64,000 nt of DNA from the NCBI GenBank assembly GCA_000004985.1, contig GG738915.1. One strand, given 5' to 3'. Source of the stretch: Naegleria gruberi (taxonomy: Eukaryota). Made by a program: the position numbers and the translations under genes. Each line of letters opens with the position of its first letter. The first letter of the stretch is position 1. Below the pieces are notes generated by a model, which did not search any database, had not been told where the DNA came from, and saw nothing but the letters and a program-made list of their open reading frames with translations. Of the stretch, positions 27,936-38,946 are shown one piece after another.

Positions 27936-29885
27936 TTGCATAGTCGAGTTTTTGCTCAGTTAAAAAAAATGGGCAATTCTCGTAGTATTCTACCGCCCAC
28001 TTCCTCAAACAATTTACTTCCCAATATTAAGATTGGCAATAGCAATGCAGATTCATCCATTTCGAACTCAACAATAACCCATGATGAGGATAAGACGGAG
28101 GCTGGGTATCGACAGTCTATTTCCTCACTTCCCTTCTCATCAAAAAGGCCTTCAATACGGCCCACCCATTTGAAATCACCAAAGGGTTCAATTAGCTTTA
28201 CTCAAGGATTAACAAATAATACTCACAATAATACCAATCATCATCATAATTCAAAAAACATGCTTCCTCCCTTAGTAACAAACAAACCAAATAGCCTTTC
28301 CACTCCTCCTTCCCTTGATACTTTGTCAATAGACCAATCATCTTCCAACAACATATTGGGAATTAGACAAGTAATTAGCAATGATTCCTTTCAAACCATT
28401 TCCTCATCAACTTATTCATCCTCTCTCAGTAACAAAACACTCGAAAATAGCTCTATGAATAACACCTTACGAGTCAATGAAACATCATCGACACTTAATA
28501 CAAGAGCAACCTCTCCTATTCAGTTTGGTAGAAGAACATCTTCTACCCAGGCCTTAAACTCTCTCGCTAAATCACGAGGCAAAGGCTCTGCTGTATCACC
28601 TAAGAATATCAATACTCAACAACTTTCCTCATTGAGTAATAATAATAACACCACTAGTATCAAGAATAGAAGTAATGATTCTCCTGAAATTCCTTCATCC
28701 CCAACCAACAATAACAAAACCTCTTCCTTAACAGCTGGTGCTGCATCTTCCTGCCCTTCAAACTCACCAAACGCCAACAATAACAATATTATAGCCTCGA
28801 TTTCGAACTCTGAAAATTACGGGCCAAATTCATCTGCCCTATTCCTGGAACCTCTTCCAAATTTGAACAAATCAAATACCGATGCTTATGAATCAGAAGA
28901 TGAACCATCAACATTCATCATGCCAAATAAGCTAATTTCCACAGATAGTTTTAGTCTTATCAGTTCCCATAAACGAGTAGGAGCCAAGTTAATGTTTGAC
29001 AGAGATGCTGTGAATAATAGTAATGTAAGCAAGCTGGATGATTGTGATACAGGAAGTGAAATATCAAGGCAGGAGGATGAACAACCTCTCATTCTCACTT
29101 CGACCTTAGATGTAGATATGATGATGAACCAAAAGAAGTTGGCTTCCATTTCAACACCTCCTAGGGCTCAAACTTTGACGGCAACAATGGAATCACCAGA
29201 CATTTTCTTTGATACACCACCTCAGAGGGAGACTTCAATGAAGAATATTGCTAGTGCACCAAATTTGCTCTATGACTCTCTTTCTCGTAAAATGGATGAA
29301 AAGGAGAGATCACTGATTGATAGTCTGACCTTAGACAAATCTTCTACTATCAGTCCAAGTTCTAGTATTGATGTAAAGAAAACAAACAAAATGCGACGAA
29401 GTGTTGGTGATAGTGATGATATACTGGATGATATTTTGAGCGAAAAGCCAACATTAAAATCATTGAAAAAGTTAAAGAGTGAAAATTCGGTGAGAAGGAG
29501 AGCAACTAGTCTCAATAATTCAAAAGCAGGAAAAAAAAGCGCCGAGAAGAATTCAACCTACCTTAGAGAAAATGATGGAATTAGTACTAATATTATGGAT
29601 ATTCTGAAGGGATGCGAGGATTTGTTGGGAGATTTAGAACTTGAGCCAAAGTGTCCTTGTACTATTGAGATTACACAACCAGATGCAAATCCAGAGACGT
29701 CTCACTTGCTTCCTCTTCAAAATTCCAGACGATTCAATTTACTAACAGTTCCAGACCTCAAACAAGTGATGAGAGAAAGTAGGTCAGAACAAAAACAACA
29801 CGAAAGAAAACAAAAGAATGTGAAAAAGGAAGTAGCCAATATCATCAAAGATATCAGGTCTTCGTTTTCAGAATTTGATTTTTAA
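27936..29885 (+). CDS. Hypothetical Ser/Asn/Thr-rich low-complexity protein
   Basis: 649-aa uninterrupted ORF; no recognisable domain; many S/T/N runs. Confidence 0.4.
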   Translation: MHSRVFAQLKKMGNSRSILPPTSSNNLLPNIKIGNSNADSSISNSTITHDEDKTEAGYRQSISSLPFSSKRPSIRPTHLKSPKGSISFTQGLTNNTHNNTNHHHNSKNMLPPLVTNKPNSLSTPPSLDTLSIDQSSSNNILGIRQVISNDSFQTISSSTYSSSLSNKTLENSSMNNTLRVNETSSTLNTRATSPIQFGRRTSSTQALNSLAKSRGKGSAVSPKNINTQQLSSLSNNNNTTSIKNRSNDSPEIPSSPTNNNKTSSLTAGAASSCPSNSPNANNNNIIASISNSENYGPNSSALFLEPLPNLNKSNTDAYESEDEPSTFIMPNKLISTDSFSLISSHKRVGAKLMFDRDAVNNSNVSKLDDCDTGSEISRQEDEQPLILTSTLDVDMMMNQKKLASISTPPRAQTLTATMESPDIFFDTPPQRETSMKNIASAPNLLYDSLSRKMDEKERSLIDSLTLDKSSTISPSSSIDVKKTNKMRRSVGDSDDILDDILSEKPTLKSLKKLKSENSVRRRATSLNNSKAGKKSAEKNSTYLRENDGISTNIMDILKGCEDLLGDLELEPKCPCTIEITQPDANPETSHLLPLQNSRRFNLLTVPDLKQVMRESRSEQKQHERKQKNVKKEVANIIKDIRSSFSEFDF

Positions 29886-31758: not shown

Positions 31759-34700
31759 ATGCCAATCATTAAATTCTCCACAGGCTCTCTTCCAATCAAT
31801 TCCAATCTTCAAAGGGTGATTGAAAAGAGTCTCTCCGAAGTGAATGTTAATAATTTATTTAATTATGGAACTCCAAAAGGAGAAGAATTTATTAGACATT
31901 CCATTGCAAATTTGTACAATAATTCAAGGAGTGAAAGTGATGATCAAAAAATTGTGATGAAGAGCGATGATGTTTTCATCACTACATCGGCTCAACAGGG
32001 ATTAAATATTTCATTTGCTACCTTGTTCGGAAGTGAAGTTGAGAGTGGAAAGACAATTGTCTTGTTGCAACAACCTTGCTTTTTTGGAGTGGTGAGATTA
32101 ATTAAAAAGTATTGTTTGGGAAAGAGTTGGATTGATGTCATTACATTTGAGAATATTGATGAATTGTTGGAAAAGTTTAAAAATTTTCAAAGTGCTGCTT
32201 CTGTAAATAGAATTGTAATTTATCTTTGCTCTAATTATCAACCAAATTCGGGAAATATTTTGAGTGAAGGGGAAAAATCTGACCTTTGTAATCTTGTTTC
32301 GAAGAATATAATTGAAACGACCATCATTGAAGATAATCCATATGATTTTCTGTATGGCACCGAGAAGAGGCCTAGTACTCTTTTTGAAATACTTCCAGAG
32401 AAAACAACTTTAATTGGCGGATTTTCCAAGATTCTTGCTCCAGGAATTCGTGTTGGTTATCTGATTACAAGAAATCAATCATTCAGTGGAAGATTGTACA
32501 GAGAGAAGATTGATCAGGACTTGTTTACTTCTACACTGAGTCAGCAAGTTTGTGCCAATGCTTTGCAAGATGTATCGTACCTGTCAGAGTGGAGAGCGTT
32601 CGTTCAAAAGAGGGTTCAATGTACTGTTAAATTATTAGAAGAAATATTTGGTGAGGAAAAGAGGAGTGGAAAGATTGAATGGACTAATATTGAAAGTGGA
32701 ATTTTTGTCTATTTGAGGTTTTTCAATTCCAATCACGAAGGAGTTGCAAGTATCCAAAAATTACTTGAAATCTCCAAGAATGATTTTGAGCTAGAGTTAG
32801 AACCAAGTGGATACTGCTACTTGGATGGATGCTCGAGATTGGAGACTCGCATTAATATTATGCTTTGCGAGAGTGAAGATATTTTAAGAGAGGGCCTGGA
32901 AAGATTAAAGATTGCCTATCACAAGTGGACCATCTCTCCAAATGAAACAACCAGCATTCGTTCTATAAGCACTGAAGAAGAAAAACCTAATAAGCAAATA
33001 CTCAAGGTTGTTATCACCTCTGGAGGAACTGCTGTTCCAATCGATTCAGTCAGATATATCACTAACAGCTCTACAGGCACAACAGGAGCTTTAATTGCCG
33101 AGGAATTTGTAAAGAGGGGCCATTTAGTTTATTACATTCACAGCAAGAATGGAAAAGTTCCTTCGAAGAAATATCCAAACTTGATTTTACTTCCTTACTT
33201 TACCTTTGATGAGTATCTTGAAGTTCTAAAACAAACCACCATTGAATGTAATCCTGACGTCGTCATTTTGAGTGCAGCTGTTAGTGATTATGGTGTACAA
33301 CAAGCTCATGAGGGAAAGATTAGCTCTGATCTCGACACTCAAACCCTTACACTTGTCAAGTTGCCAAAGATTATTTCCTTGGTGAAACACTGGAATCCTA
33401 AAGTATTTCTTGTCGGATTCAAATTGCTTGCTGGAGCCACTACTGAAACACTTATTGATACAGCTTACAAATCTGGTATTAGAAATCATTGTAACCTCAC
33501 TGTTGCTAACACAACCACAAAGGATGACATGTCTAATTTCGGAAAGAGAATTATTACCATCATTACACCAGAGAAGAGCGTCATTTCCACATCAGTGAGA
33601 GATCTACCAAATGCATTGACTACTCATGTCGAAAAGAGAGTCTCCCACAAACACTACAAAACAATTGTTATTCCCTCTGATCACAAGGATTACATTAATT
33701 ATGAAAAAGTTATGGGCGAATCCATTCAGACCATGTTCTCCAACATCCAAAAAGGATATACTTTGGGATTATTTGATAGCTATTTTAAGGATGAAACAAT
33801 TTCAGATATGAATTCACATTTTGGATTTGTAGCAATGCGTGCCCCAGAACCATATAGTGGCTTCTTGATTACTTCCAGAGGAAGTGATAAAAGTCAACCA
33901 AGTATTAAGGATATTACCTACATTTCCAAAGTTGATTTCCAAGCAAGAACTTTGCATGTTCATTCAACTCATAGACAAAAGGCCTCTCTCAATGCTAATG
34001 TTGCTGGATGGTTATTTGAGAATAGACCGTTGGTTAATTTGATTTTACATGCTCACATCTTCCCAAGTTGTGATAACAAGACTGATTTTGACTATTCACC
34101 AGGTACTCAAGAGGATGTCGATGCTGTAGCTAGAAAAATGTCAAACAATGAAAAGATTGTGGAAATACCAGATCATGGTGTCATTTCAGTCTCTAACAGT
34201 TCAAGAATTGAAGAGGCTATTGATGCACTCGGAGAAGGACACGCCTATTTCAAGTTTGCTCACCTCTACGATATGATCTATGCAAGATTCCAAAAGTCTA
34301 CAGATTTAATCGATATCTTGGATAGAGAATTTGAAAATAAGGAAAAGGTCAAGGTCTTGGATTTGGCTTGTGGAACTGGTGAAGTTTCACGACTCATGTA
34401 CGAGAGAGGACTCAAGAATATTACATTCGCCGATCAGAGTGACAAAATGTTGAACTATGCCCACAAAAAATTCATTGATAATTTTGGAGAGGAGATTTCT
34501 AATGGAATTTCAAAACATGTTACTTCCATGCAAGATTTGAAAGTCAATAATGAAAAATTCGACCTGATTGTCATAAGACAGGCCATAAATTATGCAATGA
34601 ATTTGGAAGGATTGGAAATGATTGTTAAGAATTGCTATGAGCATTTAAATGATGGTGGAAAATTAATTTTCAACACTACAAACTTTAAATTGGATCAGGA

Positions 34701-35115
34701 AGGTAAATTTGCCAAGTTGAGGGAATTGAATTATGTTGCCACAGATGGACATGTTGGTATTGCTTCCACTTCAAGAAATGAGCAAGTTCCCTTCGATGTC
34801 TACATTAGGGAAGGTAACTTGTTGTATAGAGTGGATTCTGATAAGGGTGAGAGAAAGGAAATTCGAATGTTGGTTCACGCTCAACATTGCGTTGTCGAGA
34901 GAGTCATTGCAGAAAGTGGTGATAACTTTATATTTGATAGACATGTTCTCTTTGATCTCAACAAATTTGGCATGTTCACTCAACAGGAAATCACCACTGA
35001 ATTACTCAATGCTCAATTCAAACATGTGAAATGTCTTGGAAAGGGTCTAATTGAAATCAATGAGGAAAATTCTAACACCTCACCTTCCCTCTACTTTGTT
35101 GCCACTAAAAATTAA
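31759..35115 (+). CDS. Four-domain fusion protein: class I/II PLP aminotransferase + phosphopantothenoylcysteine synthetase (CoaB/PPCS)-like + uncharacterised ~200-aa region + class I SAM-dependent methyltransferase
   Basis: Single 1118-aa ORF with no stops. (1) Aminotransferase: the motif GFSKILAPGIRVGYLI fits the PLP-lysine motif S-x-S-K-x(3-5)-G-x-R-x-G. (2) CoaB-like: KVVITSGGTAVPIDSVRYITNSSTGTTGALIAEEF ... SAAVSDY ... LVGFKLLAGAT ... TVANTT, colinear with the E. coli Dfp C-terminal half ([25 protein letters not shown] ... CAAVADY ... VVGFAAET ... ICANDVS). (3) An unknown region with an HAH pair (LILHAHIFPSCDN). (4) Methyltransferase motif I VLDLACGTGEV, motif II FDLIVIRQ, and post-II LNDGGKLIF. 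Confidence 0.7.
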   Translation: MPIIKFSTGSLPINSNLQRVIEKSLSEVNVNNLFNYGTPKGEEFIRHSIANLYNNSRSESDDQKIVMKSDDVFITTSAQQGLNISFATLFGSEVESGKTIVLLQQPCFFGVVRLIKKYCLGKSWIDVITFENIDELLEKFKNFQSAASVNRIVIYLCSNYQPNSGNILSEGEKSDLCNLVSKNIIETTIIEDNPYDFLYGTEKRPSTLFEILPEKTTLIGGFSKILAPGIRVGYLITRNQSFSGRLYREKIDQDLFTSTLSQQVCANALQDVSYLSEWRAFVQKRVQCTVKLLEEIFGEEKRSGKIEWTNIESGIFVYLRFFNSNHEGVASIQKLLEISKNDFELELEPSGYCYLDGCSRLETRINIMLCESEDILREGLERLKIAYHKWTISPNETTSIRSISTEEEKPNKQILKVVITSGGTAVPIDSVRYITNSSTGTTGALIAEEFVKRGHLVYYIHSKNGKVPSKKYPNLILLPYFTFDEYLEVLKQTTIECNPDVVILSAAVSDYGVQQAHEGKISSDLDTQTLTLVKLPKIISLVKHWNPKVFLVGFKLLAGATTETLIDTAYKSGIRNHCNLTVANTTTKDDMSNFGKRIITIITPEKSVISTSVRDLPNALTTHVEKRVSHKHYKTIVIPSDHKDYINYEKVMGESIQTMFSNIQKGYTLGLFDSYFKDETISDMNSHFGFVAMRAPEPYSGFLITSRGSDKSQPSIKDITYISKVDFQARTLHVHSTHRQKASLNANVAGWLFENRPLVNLILHAHIFPSCDNKTDFDYSPGTQEDVDAVARKMSNNEKIVEIPDHGVISVSNSSRIEEAIDALGEGHAYFKFAHLYDMIYARFQKSTDLIDILDREFENKEKVKVLDLACGTGEVSRLMYERGLKNITFADQSDKMLNYAHKKFIDNFGEEISNGISKHVTSMQDLKVNNEKFDLIVIRQAINYAMNLEGLEMIVKNCYEHLNDGGKLIFNTTNFKLDQEGKFAKLRELNYVATDGHVGIASTSRNEQVPFDVYIREGNLLYRVDSDKGERKEIRMLVHAQHCVVERVIAESGDNFIFDRHVLFDLNKFGMFTQQEITTELLNAQFKHVKCLGKGLIEINEENSNTSPSLYFVATKN

Positions 35116-35268: not shown

Positions 35269-36560
35269 ATGAGTGGAAAATCAATTTATTCGGGAGAAAT
35301 TGAGGATGGCTGTTTTCATGGCAAAGGAACCATGATCTATGCCAATCAAGAGAAATATGAAGTGAGTATATTGTTGTTCTACTCATTCATCATAACTATT
35401 ATAACTATTGATTATTAATATAATTTATCTTAATGCTTGTATTGCTTAGGGAGATTGGGTGAAAGGAAAAAAGCATGGTGTAGGAGCCTTTACCTATTCC
35501 GATGGTTCTTATTATGAAGGTAAGGAAATTTCTTCACCATCATCAATGCTTATTATTACATCAAATTATTATATTAAATAGGCGAATGGATAAATGATCA
35601 AATTAATGGAAAAGGAACATTCCTCTACGCCAATGGAAATCGATATGTTGGAGAGTGGGCCGATTCAGTAATTAGTGGACGAGGCGTTCTGTACTATTCC
35701 GATGGTGATCGATATGATGGAGAATTTAAGGAAGGAAGAATGAATGGTGAGGGAATTTATTGTTATGCTGAGGGAGATCGATATGAAGGATCGTTTGTGG
35801 ATGATCAAAGACATGGAAAGGGAATAATGAGTTATGCTGGAGAGAATGGATCAATCTTTGAACGATATGAAGGTAGAGTAGATGAATTCAATTCATGAAA
35901 CTAACCATGTTGATTTTCTAATAAGGCGATTGGGCATTTGGTAAAATGGAAGGCATTGGAAAGTACCTATATAGTGATGGAAGTATTTACGAGGGAGAGT
36001 GGAAAGATGGCAAAATGAATGGACAGGGTCTATATAAATTTCAAAATGGTAATAGATATGAAGGCGAGTTTGTTAATGATCAAAAGCATGGTAAGGGTAT
36101 TCTGAGGTATGCCAATGGAGAGGTCTATGAAGGAAGCTGGAAAACTGATAAGCCACATGGAATGGGTACACTGACCTACTCTCACGGTGACAAGTATGTT
36201 GGAGAATTTGTCAATGCCAAGAAACATGGAAAGGGATCACTGGTCTATAGAAATGGTGACATTTATGATGGAGAGTGGAAGAATGATCATGCCAATGGTT
36301 ATGGGGTTTTGGAGTATGCCAATGGATCGAGCTACGAGGGAAACTTTGTGGATGATAAGAAACATGGTCAGGCAATTGTTAGAAGTTCAGATGGAAGTAT
36401 TTTTGAGGGAACGTACGAGAATGGAAGAAAGGAAGGAGAAGGTGTTTTAACATTGCAAGATGGATCTGTATATAAGGGTGTTTGGAAAGATGGTCTAATT
36501 GTTGGTATGGGTTATTTTATACCTTCAGCTCAATCAATTTGGAGTAGTCCAGATGTGTAG
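35269..36560 (+). CDS. MORN-repeat protein, 4 exons (35269..35361, 35450..35519, 35582..35872, 35926..36560), about 363 aa with ~14 MORN repeats
   Basis: Tandem YxGxWxxGxxHGxG repeats throughout (YEGEWKDGKMNGQGLYKF, YEGEFVNDQKHGKGILRY, ...). Three introns with GTGAGT/GTAAGG/GTAGAG donors and TAG/AAG acceptors, each placed right after a ...YEG codon. Joining the exons restores a continuous MORN array (MSGKSIYSGEIEDGCFHGKGTMIYANQEKYE|GDWVKGKKHGVGAFTYSDGSYYEG|EWINDQINGKGTF...). Confidence 0.7.
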
Positions 36561-37443: not shown

Positions 37444-38946
37444 ATGGTCCTCAAGAATTTAATACCCTTCTTTAAGAGTGATAATAGCAACAATGATTCA
37501 CCTCCTCCCAACTCACCTACAACAACTATTCCACCAACAACTCAAATCTATCAGCCACCACCAACTCCAGAAAATAGACAACGAGATAATGATCAAATTG
37601 CAGCACTTGCATTGAGTCCAAGAAATCAACAAACTCAAAGACACTTTCGTTCTCCATCAATTTCCATTCCAACCACAAACAGCAACAATCAACAGCAACA
37701 ACCAACAAGTCCAACCAACACTTCTCCAACTACTAACAATACACGAAACAGAGCAATTAGTTCTCCTTTTTCATTCACCAGAAAGAGAGGAACCAGCAAT
37801 GTTTCGAATGGAAGTAATAACGGCAGTACAAGTCCTAGAGGCATTAATGGTGGTGCTTCATCTCCTCGTAATAGCCCTCAACAACCATCATCTCCAAGAA
37901 ACTTGGTGAGAGAACCAACAAGAGAAGAAAGAAGAAAGCAATTATTTAAAGAATTTGAAATGAAGAAAGTTGTCATTTATTCGAATTGTAAACGTTTGAG
38001 AGCTTTACTTGATGTTTTGATTGAAAGAGCTAAACCACATCAAGTTCAGAATGTTTCCTATGTTTTGGCACAAATGTCAGTTGTCGAAACGACTGGTTTA
38101 CCTCCAACCACTGAAAATGATCTTAAAGTTGTAAAGAGCGAATTGAATTCGATTAATCTGGAAATTTTCAGATTATCCTTGTTGATTTCTGAAAGCTACA
38201 AACAAGAAGTTTTACATCTGACAGGTGCCTCAACAATACATGACACGCGTTCACCAACAAGCATTGAAGATGAACAATTATTTGGAAATGTCAGCTGTGA
38301 ATCTGTCATTTTGAAAATAATTGGTAGAGAATTATCAGATCTTGAAAGAGATTTAGAAAGAATGCATCGTAGATGTAGAGGAAATAAGAAGAAACCTATT
38401 GAACAACCTATCCAACCTAAACGAAACAATTCCTTATTTGGAAGAAGAAGAGGAGCTTCTGCAATTGAAAGGCCAAGTAGTATGGTTCTTGGAAATCAAG
38501 ATTCAAAGAGAAGAAACTCTATGGAGTTTTATAGATCTTCAATAATTGATGAACTTGGTCAATCAGTGATGGAAAAAGTTATTGAGCGAGTTCAAAACAG
38601 TCAATTTAGAACTGTCACTAAAGAATTGCATATTGAACAGGGAATTTTAATGTTAATAGAGAAAAGATATGAAGAATTTGTGGATAAAATCAATAGATGT
38701 GACATTGACATTTATAATCCTGTCAGAATGTCAGATTTGAAATCTGAAACATTCTGGACAGATTTCCTCACGAAAAAGATGGCATTCACAGAGAATGAAT
38801 ATCAAAGTGCTCTTCAAAGTTTCTTAATTTCCAAGGAAACTGAAAATAAGAATCAAGAAGGTTCCTCGTCAATGGAAAATCAACTTTCGAATAGTAACTT
38901 TCAGATAGAGAATCGTTCTGAAGAAATTGACTTGTCTGTACAATAA
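37444..38946 (+). CDS. Hypothetical protein with a Ser/Asn/Pro/Gln-rich N-terminus and a conserved C-terminal region; member of a tandem paralog pair
   Basis: 500-aa ORF. The C-terminal half shares colinear blocks with the next gene (FEMKKVVIYSNCKRLRALLDVLIERAK vs FEIRKVLLIGACRMFKDFLLNYKKGK; ILKIIGRELSDLERDLERMH vs IINEIVDNLTKIERDAECLH). Confidence 0.45.
   Translation: MVLKNLIPFFKSDNSNNDSPPPNSPTTTIPPTTQIYQPPPTPENRQRDNDQIAALALSPRNQQTQRHFRSPSISIPTTNSNNQQQQPTSPTNTSPTTNNTRNRAISSPFSFTRKRGTSNVSNGSNNGSTSPRGINGGASSPRNSPQQPSSPRNLVREPTREERRKQLFKEFEMKKVVIYSNCKRLRALLDVLIERAKPHQVQNVSYVLAQMSVVETTGLPPTTENDLKVVKSELNSINLEIFRLSLLISESYKQEVLHLTGASTIHDTRSPTSIEDEQLFGNVSCESVILKIIGRELSDLERDLERMHRRCRGNKKKPIEQPIQPKRNNSLFGRRRGASAIERPSSMVLGNQDSKRRNSMEFYRSSIIDELGQSVMEKVIERVQNSQFRTVTKELHIEQGILMLIEKRYEEFVDKINRCDIDIYNPVRMSDLKSETFWTDFLTKKMAFTENEYQSALQSFLISKETENKNQEGSSSMENQLSNSNFQIENRSEEIDLSVQ

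What the first reader, a model, noticed from the sequence alone, without database searches (positions are those of the whole stretch)
31759..35115. Single 1118-aa ORF fusing an aminotransferase, a CoaB/PPCS-like domain, an unknown module and a SAM methyltransferase
The four catalytic-looking modules normally occur as separate proteins in distinct pathways: PLP-dependent class I transamination, the CMP/ATP-dependent ligase fold of phosphopantothenoylcysteine synthetase, and SAM-dependent methylation. Here they sit in one uninterrupted reading frame of 3.3 kb, with motif-level matches to each family (SKxxxPGxRxGY lysine motif; ITSGGTxxPIDxVRYIxNxSxG and SAAVSDY; VLDLACGTG). The third region (about residues 690-880, with LILHAHIFPSC) has no match I can name. 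Such an architecture suggests a dedicated small-molecule biosynthetic assembly line rather than CoA biosynthesis as such. For example, it could make an amino-acid-derived amide/ligation product that is then N- or O-methylated. I do not know of a described equivalent. That it is one ORF is directly visible in the sequence; the proposed function is inference.
Basis: partly seen in the sequence, partly recalled or inferred. Interest (0 to 1): 0.85.

Follow-up and report, generated by a model that had tools for sequence, protein, structure and literature searches.

The report
Four-enzyme fusion tied to CoA synthesis
A real Naegleria gene fuses four enzymes that many tiny archaea and bacteria encode side by side next to coenzyme A synthesis genes, which points to an undescribed, widely shared pathway branch that amoebae probably acquired from bacteria.

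The parts
31759..35115 (+). Complete ORF (1118 aa plus stop), equal to N. gruberi NAEGRDRAFT_81838 / XP_002670424.1
31759..32943 (+). Module 1: PLP-dependent aminotransferase, fold type I, class I/II (residues 1-395). Closest relatives are 2-aminoadipate/KAT II-type enzymes and the MocR-type AT domain. Putative PLP and carboxylate residues: N159, D192, Y195, K224, R231, R364.
   Evidence: Pfam PF00155; NCBIfam; PDB hits 1vp4, 3aov, 2egy and human KAT II; motif conservation; coordinates.
32944..32994 (+). Low-complexity linker (residues 396-412) with low model confidence
   Evidence: The full-length AF2 model has pLDDT below 50 for residues 394-413. This stretch is variable in alignment A1.
32995..33678 (+). 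Module 2: CoaB / phosphopantothenate-cysteine ligase-type domain (residues 413-640). Motifs: TSGGT (G422), VR..N (R432, N436), AAVSDY (D510), GKISS (K520).
   Evidence: Pfam DFP 1.7e-35. PDB 2gk4 at 1.5e-31, with alignments to human PPCS, yeast Cab2 and bacterial CoaB. The motif residues are invariant in 19 relatives.
33679..34293 (+). His triad H764, H766, H806; N745 where the FucA metal-ligand/catalytic Glu aligns; invariant R694, R707, K711.
34294..35112 (+). Module 4: class I SAM-dependent methyltransferase with a C-terminal lid (residues 846-1118). Motif I VLDLACGTG (G872), D892, and the family motif RQAINY (R940).
   Evidence: Pfam Methyltransf_25/11/23. The family profile against PDB finds the uncharacterised 1wzn/1y8c/3d2l first, then ToxA, DesVI/TylM1, glycine-sarcosine N-MT and phosphoethanolamine N-MT.

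Best explanation
This is a genuine Naegleria nuclear gene, probably acquired already fused from bacteria. It is the single-polypeptide version of a conserved but uncharacterised prokaryotic gene set. That set is built around the cysteine-ligation step of coenzyme A (4'-phosphopantetheine) synthesis. SHOWN: there are four folded domains with intact catalytic or ligand motifs. The same domains occur in DPANN archaea, CPR bacteria and other prokaryotes as operons and in many fusion permutations. Recurrent partners are CoaC-type flavoproteins, a CoA-type Nudix hydrolase, an Amidohydro_2 protein and, once, PPAT-DPCK. INFERRED: (1) The CoaB domain activates a carboxylate with CTP as an acyl-CMP and condenses it with cysteine. 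The substrate is most likely 4'-phosphopantothenate, which would make this the PPCS reaction. A separately encoded CoaC then decarboxylates the product. (2) The AT, aldolase-fold and MT domains form a separate catalytic unit acting on one small amino/2-oxo acid. The AT interconverts the amino acid and its 2-oxo acid. The aldolase-fold domain binds an anionic carbonyl substrate at a three-His metal site that lacks the usual Glu, and performs enolate-type chemistry (aldol, decarboxylation or epimerisation). The MT transfers a methyl group from SAM, most likely to an amine. (3) The product of this trio supplies, or is otherwise metabolically coupled to, the CoaB/CoaC steps. The identity of that metabolite is not resolved.
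For: Real, selected gene. Domains. The CoaB residues that I recall as essential in E. coli (R206, N210, K289 and the AAAVADY motif) have invariant counterparts in 19 diverse relatives. They align with human, yeast and bacterial PPCS. Census: 722 cluster representatives at E<1e-30, showing four-domain, CoaB-Ald-MT, CoaB-Ald, Ald-MT and stand-alone AT forms, and 117 relatives at E<=1e-20, about 100 of them with CoaB-Ald-MT or four-domain architecture, some named as Woesearchaeota, Nanoarchaeia, Falkowbacteria or Microgenomates. Further fusions: CoaC-CoaB-Ald, CoaC-CoaB-Ald-MT, CoaB-Ald-Nudix, Nudix-CoaB-Ald-MT, Ald-MT-AT, AT-CoaB. Operons: Nudix>AT>CoaB-Ald-MT with overlapping genes in L003, L084 and L085. 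Amidohydro_2 + CoaC + CoaB-Ald-MT in a CPR bacterium (L094), a Nanoarchaeia MAG (L095), L088 and L091. L094 has a canonical CoaC with PAMNTKMW and ACGETG. All the flavoproteins match the CoaC half of CoaBC best, at E about 1e-40. The Nudix partners carry a NuCoA-like motif (the motif is recalled from PROSITE PS01293). In L104 a CoaD+CoaE fusion that passes both curated cutoffs lies about 0.9 kb from AT>CoaB-Ald-MT. Three unrelated AT families occupy the AT slot: MocR/AadAT-like, IlvE class IV and TyrB/AspC-like. So transamination itself is the conserved requirement. P0003 and P0015 have lost all CoaB motifs but keep the AT, Ald and MT motifs, and L100 has Ald-MT plus AT with no CoaB. So the trio is an independent unit. 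Its survival without CoaB catalysis fits a CoaB activity that another enzyme, such as a host PPCS, can supply. The NJ tree puts Naegleria beside the bacterial four-domain proteins.
Against: The CoaB domain scores below NCBIfam's equivalog cutoffs (148 against 265 bits; 137.5 against 217). Four of the five associated flavoproteins examined are non-canonical: PT(M/A)HxSLY replaces PxMNxxMW and there is no clamp Cys. They could act on a different Cys conjugate or stop at the enethiol. Many loci show no other CoA gene within 7-8 kb. I could not test whether Naegleria or the DPANN/CPR genomes encode a second, canonical CoaB. No known step of CoA synthesis uses SAM or a class II aldolase-fold enzyme, so the coupling is unexplained. 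One giant relative (P0145) puts an AMP-binding ligase upstream of an aldolase-fold domain and this MT family, which hints that a generic 'ligase + Ald + MT' logic may matter. Context evidence rests on about 15 non-redundant loci, mostly MAGs or metagenome contigs with uncertain taxonomy. The tree has no support values.
Confidence: 0.5

Rival explanations
1. Dedicated small-molecule pathway unrelated to CoA. The AT, aldolase-fold and MT domains build a modified amino acid or acid. The CoaB-like domain, a neofunctionalised paralogue, ligates it to cysteine or another amine through an acyl-CMP. A divergent CoaC-like flavoprotein decarboxylates the product, giving for example an N-acyl-cysteamine-type thiol or enethiol.
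For: The CoaB domain is below the curated equivalog cutoffs. The non-canonical flavoproteins lack the Asn and clamp Cys of true PPC decarboxylases in L087, L088, L091 and L095. Long operons with extra genes (Amidohydro_2, ORFs with no Pfam match, an APH-family kinase) look like a biosynthetic cluster. P0145 has an AMP-binding ligase upstream of an aldolase-fold domain and this MT family.
Against: The system occurs in DPANN and CPR lineages. From general knowledge these have very small genomes, where a second CoaB/CoaC pair for a secondary metabolite is unlikely. L094 has a canonical CoaC. The Nudix partners are CoA-type and PPAT-DPCK lies next door in L104. All PPCS catalytic residues are invariant. 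Dead-CoaB relatives keep the other three domains, which is hard to reconcile with an obligatory ligation step.
Confidence: 0.28
2. In Naegleria the CoaB domain is mainly a structural scaffold or a redundant activity, with the housekeeping PPCS encoded elsewhere. On this reading the biologically relevant function is only the AT-aldolase-fold-MT unit, for example making an N-methylated or beta-methylated amino acid.
For: P0003 and the eukaryotic transcript P0015 keep a CoaB-sized but motif-less domain between an intact AT and intact Ald-MT domains. Ald-MT proteins without a Pfam DFP domain still match the C-terminal part of the CoaB region of the profile. The CoaB-to-Ald junction is the constant feature of all fusions.
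Against: All three Naegleria species, Mastigamoeba and the bacterial four-domain proteins keep every CoaB motif intact. The 25:12 synonymous to non-synonymous ratio between the two N. gruberi assemblies is for the whole ORF and does not single out this domain.
Confidence: 0.12
3. Methionine-salvage-like module. The aldolase-fold domain would be an MtnB-type methylthioribulose-1-phosphate dehydratase or aldolase, and the AT would be the final 4-methylthio-2-oxobutanoate transaminase.
Confidence: 0.06
4. Artefact: a chimeric assembly, bacterial contamination or a mis-fused gene model.
For: The N. lovaniensis annotation splits the locus into two adjacent models (C9374_004708 and C9374_004707).
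Against: A second independent assembly has the identical ORF length. N. fowleri has a single 1296-aa model. The same domain order occurs in bacteria and in Mastigamoeba. GC and GC3 match the flanking Naegleria genes, and the flanks are typical S/N-rich eukaryotic ORFs.
Confidence: 0.01

Closest known systems
Bifunctional CoaBC (Dfp) and monofunctional streptococcal-type CoaB (TIGR02114; PDB 2gk4), i.e. phosphopantothenate-cysteine ligase, EC 6.3.2.5
   Same: Same DFP fold family, with 2gk4 as the best solved match at 1.5e-31. Same signature motifs and catalytic residues. In relatives the domain sits next to, or is fused behind, a CoaC-type flavoprotein, as in Dfp.
   Different: Here the domain is fused to an aminotransferase upstream and to an aldolase-fold domain plus a methyltransferase downstream. 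It scores below the curated equivalog cutoffs. Many partner flavoproteins lack the PxMNxxMW Asn and the clamp Cys. No substrate has been tested.
Class II aldolase/adducin superfamily (PF00596): L-fuculose-1-phosphate aldolase, the decarboxylase HMPDdc (2z7b), the NovR/TqaM-type enzymes, pyruvic oxime dioxygenase
   Different: The metal-ligand/catalytic Glu of FucA is an invariant Asn (KASLNAN). The positions that bind phosphate in FucA (N29, T43 and S72, from my memory of the FucA structure) are Phe, Arg and Leu here. This resembles the members that act on carboxylic acids more than the sugar-phosphate aldolases. The domain always follows a CoaB domain or a remnant of one.
Aminotransferase + SAM methyltransferase pairs of specialised metabolism. 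From general knowledge these include TylB/TylM1 and DesV/DesVI (amino-sugar N,N-dimethylation), and GlmT+IlvE, MrsA/MrsB and MarG/MarI/MarH (beta-methyl amino acids).
   Same: A transaminase coupled with a class I methyltransferase acting on the same small molecule. The MT profile's nearest characterised structures include DesVI, TylM1, ToxA, glycine-sarcosine N-MT and phosphoethanolamine N-MT. In one operon an IlvE fills the AT slot. The third, metal-binding partner recalls the MarH role.
   Different: No member of this family is characterised. The AT is an alpha-amino-acid type (class I or IV), not a sugar aminotransferase. C-, N-, O- and S-methylation cannot be told apart from sequence. The link to CoaB/CoaC has no precedent in those systems.
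2-aminoadipate / kynurenine aminotransferase II subgroup and the AT-like domain of MocR/GabR/PdxR regulators
   Same: These are the best PDB and NCBIfam matches for module 1. The Schiff-base Lys and the PLP and carboxylate-binding residues are conserved.
   Different: There is no HTH domain, so it is not a regulator. All scores are far below the curated cutoffs. In other members of the system the slot is filled by IlvE-type or TyrB/AspC-type enzymes.

Membership tests
Aminotransferase class I/II (PF00155, fold type I PLP enzymes) | Profile match above the curated threshold | tested here: met
   PF00155 at 45.5 bits against a cutoff of 19.7, residues 3-327.
Aminotransferase class I/II (PF00155, fold type I PLP enzymes) | Schiff-base Lys in the SxSK motif, plus the Asn, Asp, Tyr and Arg that hold PLP and the C-terminal Arg for the substrate carboxylate | tested here: met
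   GGFSKILAPGIR (K224, R231), SNYQPNSG (N159), IIEDNPYD (D192, Y195) and TRIN (R364) are conserved in all AT-bearing relatives. The roles of these residues are assigned from general knowledge of the family.
Aminotransferase class I/II (PF00155, fold type I PLP enzymes) | Transaminase activity and substrate | not testable with these tools
   No NCBIfam equivalog cutoff is reached. Decarboxylase or lyase chemistry within this fold cannot be excluded.
CoaB / PPCS (PF04127 DFP; EC 6.3.2.5) | Profile match above the Pfam threshold | tested here: met
   PF04127 at 123 bits against a cutoff of 22.
CoaB / PPCS (PF04127 DFP; EC 6.3.2.5) | Curated equivalog-level score (NCBIfam PRK06732, TIGR02114, TIGR00521) | tested here: not met
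   147.9 against 265, 137.5 against 217.2 and 112 against 219.7 bits. The first two matches are split into two stretches.
CoaB / PPCS (PF04127 DFP; EC 6.3.2.5) | Catalytic residues for acyl-cytidylate formation (Lys of KIxS/KIKK) and for the cysteine step (Arg and Asn of VRxIxN; AAVxDY) | tested here: met
   R432, N436, D510 and K520. These are invariant in 19 relatives and align with human PPCS, yeast Cab2 and bacterial CoaB. The functional roles are recalled from E. coli CoaB mutagenesis literature and were not re-read here.
CoaB / PPCS (PF04127 DFP; EC 6.3.2.5) | Genomic association with other CoA-pathway genes | tested here: met
   This was tested in prokaryotic relatives only. CoaC is adjacent or fused in L087, L088, L091, L094, L095, P0025 and P0100. 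A CoaD+CoaE fusion is adjacent in L104. A NuCoA-type Nudix is adjacent or fused.
CoaB / PPCS (PF04127 DFP; EC 6.3.2.5) | Uses 4'-phosphopantothenate and cysteine; is the organism's only PPCS | not testable with these tools
   This needs an enzyme assay or complementation, and a whole-proteome search of Naegleria and of the DPANN/CPR genomes.
Class II aldolase/adducin (PF00596) | Profile match above the curated threshold | tested here: inconclusive
   The Naegleria protein scores 14.7 bits as the whole protein and 20.8 bits as the isolated module, against a cutoff of 22.2. All 5 family members hit PF00596, best E-value 1.3e-12.
Class II aldolase/adducin (PF00596) | Fold | tested here: met
Class II aldolase/adducin (PF00596) | Three His metal ligands | tested here: met
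   H764, H766 and H806 are invariant.
Class II aldolase/adducin (PF00596) | Metal-ligand / general-base Glu (Glu73 of FucA) and the FucA-type phosphate-binding residues | tested here: not met
   This position aligns to the invariant N745 in KASLNAN. The positions of FucA N29, T43 and S72 are F, R and L, by my own reading of the alignment against remembered FucA residues. So I do not file this domain as a FucA-type aldolase, only as a member of the fold superfamily.
Class I SAM-dependent methyltransferase (PF13649/PF08241) | Profile match above threshold, and motif I GxGxG with an acidic residue after beta-2 | tested here: met
   53.3 bits against 27. VLDLACGTG and FADQS (D892) are conserved.
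Class I SAM-dependent methyltransferase (PF13649/PF08241) | Acceptor atom and substrate | not testable with these tools
   The nearest characterised structures are mostly amine N-methyltransferases. The three closest full-length matches are uncharacterised.
Methylthioribulose-1-phosphate dehydratase (MtnB) | Closest fold or sequence match, and a methionine-salvage gene context | tested here: not met
Known anti-phage defence systems (PADLOC) | Match to a defence-system protein model beyond a generic domain | tested here: not met
   The only hit is a generic methyltransferase-core match to mad2.

The most novel reading that the evidence does not exclude
The AT, aldolase-fold and MT trio, together with its Amidohydro_2 and Nudix partners, is an undescribed enzymatic route that feeds or recycles a building block of 4'-phosphopantetheine/CoA. 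Candidates are a non-canonical supply of the pantoyl, beta-alanine or cysteine/cysteamine moiety, or repair of damaged CoA. On this reading it operates in DPANN archaea and CPR bacteria, and Naegleria and Mastigamoeba each captured it by lateral transfer. In Naegleria, including the pathogen N. fowleri, this bacterial-type protein would then be the cell's PPCS.
Probability: 0.2. Interest if true: 0.85.

Novelty: new variant of a known kind. Interest (0 to 1): 0.66.

Why it matters
CoA synthesis is essential in all cells, and its early steps are incompletely understood in many reduced-genome archaea and bacteria. I found no published function for this conserved set: CoaB, aldolase-fold domain, methyltransferase and transaminase, with CoaC, a CoA-type Nudix and Amidohydro_2 as partners. 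It spans DPANN, CPR and other prokaryotes and two unrelated amoebae. The many fusion permutations give an unusually strong Rosetta-stone signal that these activities work together, so there is a concrete, testable lead to a new pathway branch. A practical point follows. The orthologue in the brain-eating amoeba N. fowleri (53% identity) is bacterial in type. If it is that organism's phosphopantothenate-cysteine ligase, it would be a selective drug target. It is also a clean example of a whole prokaryotic operon's worth of enzymes arriving in eukaryotes as one gene.

Tried and rejected
1. Genome-collection scan with the three-domain alignment. The first attempt failed because no stretch was conserved enough. 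The second used patterns from the CoaB domain, so 79 of 80 loci were ordinary CoaB genes and only L003 was informative.

2. Eight literature searches found nothing on the fusion, the operon, or CoA synthesis genes in Naegleria. The archaeal CoA paper PMC6650551 only notes that a dephospho-CoA kinase family is absent from some DPANN.

3. Function of the Amidohydro_2 partner. There was no NCBIfam hit. One member had no PDB sequence hit. The other gave only a distant match to an uncharacterised hydrolase (3nur) and weak matches to LigW/gamma-resorcylate-type decarboxylases. No chemistry can be assigned.

4. The conserved, divergently transcribed protein of about 300 aa in L088, L091 and L095 shows only a weak AbrB/MazE-type N-terminus and no structural match.

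5. A homology search with the aldolase-fold module alone returned only fragments of the same system and no named protein.

6. The defence-system idea, raised by toxin-antitoxin and SMC-like neighbours, was rejected.

7. The methionine-salvage idea was considered and given low weight (see rivals).

8. I considered specific chemical schemes. They included valine to 2-oxoisovalerate to ketopantoate, homoserine-derived ketopantoate by double C-methylation, S-methylation of a Zn-bound thiol, and a CoA repair cycle using Nudix and an amidohydrolase. None accounts for all the components, so I do not commit to any of them.

9. The full-length AF2 model (pTM 0.41, six-sequence alignment) is too uncertain to say anything about domain packing or substrate channelling.

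Full report
**1. The observation**

The window contains a + strand ORF at 31759..35115 (ATG start, 1118 aa) exactly as reported. The whole window has 30-39% GC. The flanking ORFs are long, serine/asparagine-rich and eukaryote-like, and one is a MORN-repeat protein.

An exact-sequence look-up shows the ORF is Naegleria gruberi NEG-M NAEGRDRAFT_81838 (XP_002670424.1 / EFC37680.1), deposited as a single-exon "hypothetical protein".

A second, independent assembly from a metagenome (ERZ929261) carries the same-length ORF. It has 37 nucleotide differences, no indels, and 25 synonymous against 12 non-synonymous codon changes. By my own rough site count this is a dN/dS of about 0.15. Its flanks are 98.5% identical upstream and identical downstream. 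The ORF's GC3 (0.33) matches its neighbours (0.24-0.34).

N. fowleri has a 1296-aa orthologue (53% identity, full coverage). N. lovaniensis has the locus split into two adjacent gene models.

The ORF is therefore real, under purifying selection and compositionally at home in the Naegleria genome. It is neither a chance ORF nor an assembly chimera.

**2. The four modules**

Pfam supports three domains above their curated cutoffs:
- Aminotran_1_2: residues 3-327, 45.5 bits.
- DFP (the CoaB domain): residues 415-591, 123 bits.
- Several class I methyltransferase models: about residues 850-980.

NCBIfam and PDB searches agree:
- The AT is closest to the 2-aminoadipate/kynurenine-AT II group and the AT-like domain of MocR regulators.
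- The ligase is closest to streptococcal-type monofunctional CoaB (PDB 2gk4, 1e-29 to 1e-31).
- The MT is closest to ToxA and related enzymes.

I tested that in three ways:
- In an alignment of this region from five relatives, all five members hit PF00596, best E-value 1.3e-12.
- A profile search of solved structures found the class II aldolase-fold decarboxylase 2z7b and fuculose-phosphate aldolase 2opi.

The three metal-binding histidines (H764, H766, H806) are invariant. The position that aligns with the metal-ligand/catalytic Glu of the aldolases is an invariant Asn (N745, motif KASLNAN). Module 3 is thus a divergent member of the fold superfamily, not a FucA-type aldolase.

A full-length model shows four folded units separated by a disordered linker at residues 394-413. 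It is too uncertain (pTM 0.41) to inform on domain packing.

All four domains keep their diagnostic residues:
- AT: K224 plus the PLP and carboxylate-binding residues.
- CoaB: R432, N436, D510 and K520.
- MT: SAM motif I.

**3. The architecture is widespread**

A full-length search found relatives at 35-38% identity. One four-domain relative (P0004) sits on a plainly bacterial contig with TatA, an AI-2E transporter and YoeB/YefM. Another relative (P0006) is a CoaB-aldolase-MT protein with a separate AT gene 6 bp upstream.

An exhaustive profile census of 1.8 billion cluster representatives gave 722 hits at E<1e-30. It showed these forms:
- four-domain proteins of 1034-1195 aa;
- many CoaB-Ald-MT proteins of about 650 aa;
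- CoaB-Ald proteins of about 420 aa;
- Ald-MT proteins;
- high-scoring stand-alone ATs of about 350 aa.

A second search with a 19-sequence alignment returned 117 relatives at E<=1e-20. About 100 of them have the CoaB-Ald-MT or four-domain architecture. Named sources include Candidatus Woesearchaeota, Nanoarchaeia, Falkowbacteria and Microgenomates. It also returned two eukaryotic four-domain proteins from EukProt. One is m51a1_g513, an identifier style that the genome paper PMC8136499 uses for Mastigamoeba balamuthi.

Further permutations exist: CoaC-CoaB-Ald (P0100), CoaC-CoaB-Ald-MT (P0025), CoaB-Ald-Nudix (P0138, P0144, P0149), Nudix-CoaB-Ald-MT (P0200, P0030), Ald-MT-AT (P0040) and AT-CoaB (P0141). 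The constant feature is that the aldolase-fold domain directly follows a CoaB domain or a remnant of one.

**4. Gene neighbourhoods**

I examined about 15 non-redundant loci.

| Locus | Arrangement |
|---|---|
| L003, L084, L085 | Nudix > AT > CoaB-Ald-MT, with overlapping genes |
| L094 (CPR bacterium) | CoaB-Ald-MT > small ORF > Amidohydro_2 > CoaC |
| L095 (Nanoarchaeia MAG) | Amidohydro_2 > CoaC-like > CoaB-Ald-MT |
| L088, L091 | The same partners. In L091 the CoaC-like and CoaB domains are fused, while AT, Ald and MT are separate genes. |
| L098 | APH-family kinase > CoaB-Ald > MT > AT > small ORF > Nudix. The AT here is a class IV enzyme that passes the IlvE cutoff. |
| L105 | Nudix-CoaB-Ald-MT followed by a TyrB/AspC-type AT (372.8 bits against a cutoff of 377) |
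| L100 | Ald-MT > AT, with no CoaB |
| L104 | AT > CoaB-Ald-MT. About 0.9 kb away is a fusion that passes the curated cutoffs for both pantetheine-phosphate adenylyltransferase and dephospho-CoA kinase. |
| L103 | The three-domain gene starts at the base after eutC, in an eutB-permease-eutC operon |

The Nudix partners carry a close match to the CoA-type Nudix motif as I recall it from PROSITE PS01293. In L091 it reads YLTKRPATFRTYPGRYVFPGG. They also give a faint CoA-pyrophosphatase hit.

All the flavoprotein partners match the CoaC half of CoaBC best, at E about 1e-40. They fall into two kinds:
- L094 has the canonical PAMNTKMW and ACGETG signatures.
- L087, L088, L091 and L095 have PT(M/A)HxSLY and no clamp cysteine.

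**5. What this implies**

Three unrelated transaminase families fill the same slot. Transamination is therefore a required activity rather than an accident of gene order.

The MT family profile finds three uncharacterised full-length matches first. It then finds mostly small-molecule amine N-methyltransferases: ToxA, DesVI/TylM1, glycine-sarcosine N-MT, phosphoethanolamine N-MT, GNMT and CalS10.

The CoaB domain aligns through all signature segments with human PPCS, yeast Cab2 and bacterial CoaB. Its key residues are invariant across 19 diverse relatives.

Two relatives have lost every CoaB motif: P0003 and the eukaryotic transcript P0015. Both keep the AT lysine, the His triad and SLNA motif, and the SAM motif. 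The AT-Ald-MT trio is therefore maintained without CoaB catalysis. This is what one expects if the CoaB activity can be supplied by another enzyme, such as a host PPCS. It is hard to square with a linear assembly line that needs the ligation.

An unsupported neighbour-joining tree places Naegleria (with P0003) next to the bacterial four-domain proteins P0013 and P0004. It places Mastigamoeba (with P0017) elsewhere. This suggests acquisition of an already-fused bacterial gene, possibly more than once.

**6. Best explanation and its limits**

I read the protein as a Rosetta-stone fusion of an uncharacterised pathway coupled to the CoaB/CoaC steps of 4'-phosphopantetheine synthesis.
- The CoaB domain most likely performs PPCS-type ligation.
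- The AT, the three-His aldolase-fold domain and the MT most likely act in sequence on one small amino/2-oxo acid.

The link to CoA rests on gene context: the canonical CoaC, the PPAT-DPCK neighbour, the CoA-type Nudix, and occurrence in DPANN and CPR lineages, which from general knowledge have very small genomes. It also rests on residue conservation.

Several points count against it:
- The ligase scores below the curated equivalog cutoffs.
- Four of the five flavoproteins examined are non-canonical.
- No known CoA step uses SAM or this fold.
- I could not check for a second CoaB in any genome.

I could not identify the trio's substrate. The schemes I considered (pantoate supply from valine, C2-amine or cysteamine chemistry, CoA repair) each leave components unexplained.

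**7. Comparison with what is known, and novelty**

Each domain belongs to a well-known superfamily. Within the open-access literature I could search, the combination, the operon and its partners have not been described. No PADLOC defence model matches beyond a generic MT core.

I rate it a new variant of known kinds. The enzymology is recognisable and the pathway is unknown. Interest is fairly high because of its breadth across all three domains of life, the strength of the fusion evidence, the link to an essential cofactor, and the presence of an orthologue in the pathogen N. fowleri.

Noticed in passing
L087:2517-3101, L088:7185-7748, L091:7375-7950, L095:7445-8014: A subfamily of CoaC-like flavoproteins keeps the active-site His (EHICL) and the AP(A/C)T(L/M)NT...ADN motif. 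It has PT(M/A)HxSLY in place of PxMNxxMW and lacks the clamp Cys (ACGxxG) of phosphopantothenoylcysteine decarboxylases. These enzymes might release an enethiol or use a different substrate.
   Followed up: partly
P0145 (3298 aa; from the census, no locus): A giant protein combines an AMP-binding ligase, a class II aldolase-fold domain (KPSVDSP subtype), a methyltransferase clearly of this family (YDLLYQRF, RQAISY, LYVVATK) and a 3-dehydroquinate-synthase-like domain. A different carboxylate-activating ligase lies upstream of the aldolase-fold domain and this MT family.
   Followed up: partly
L103:3221-7000: In one clade the CoaB-Ald-MT gene starts at the base after eutC, in an eutB / amino-acid-permease / eutC (ethanolamine ammonia-lyase) operon. 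Both Eut subunits pass the curated cutoffs. The connection is unexplained.
   Followed up: partly
L088:4722-5624(-), L091:4969-5895(-), L095:5407-6276(-): A conserved protein of about 290-308 aa is transcribed divergently from the Amidohydro_2-CoaC-CoaB-Ald-MT operon. It has only a weak AbrB/MazE-type N-terminal match and no structural homologue. It may be a dedicated regulator.
   Followed up: partly
L088:6566-7198, L088:8745-9299, L098:9932-10342, L094:10008-10220, L095:6377-6613: Small or medium ORFs inside these operons have no Pfam or NCBIfam match. They may be further components of the system.
   Followed up: no
N. lovaniensis proteins P0005 (C9374_004708, 626 aa) and P0022 (C9374_004707, 482 aa): The N. 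lovaniensis orthologue is annotated as two adjacent genes. One covers the AT plus part of CoaB, and the other covers part of the aldolase-fold domain plus the MT. About 100 residues are missing between them. This is probably a gene-model error, but it could be a real interruption.
   Followed up: no
L003:4586-7003: The gene downstream of the Nudix-AT-CoaB-Ald-MT operon is an SMC/Rad50-like ATPase that matches the Lamassu defence protein LmuB (PADLOC 3.5e-29). It appears unrelated to the system.
   Followed up: partly
L001:2661-3235 and L001:6899-7333: The bacterial four-domain gene is flanked by a YoeB/YefM toxin-antitoxin pair and, convergently, by a truncated dimethylargininase/arginine dihydrolase-like gene.
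   Followed up: no
window 35946-36560 (+): A 204-aa ORF made almost entirely of MORN-type repeats (YxGxWxxGxxxGxG) lies directly downstream of the finding.
   Followed up: no
window 27936-29885 (+) and 37444-38946 (+): Long ORFs rich in Ser/Asn/Thr low-complexity sequence flank the locus. They are typical of Naegleria nuclear genes and support a eukaryotic chromosomal context.
   Followed up: no
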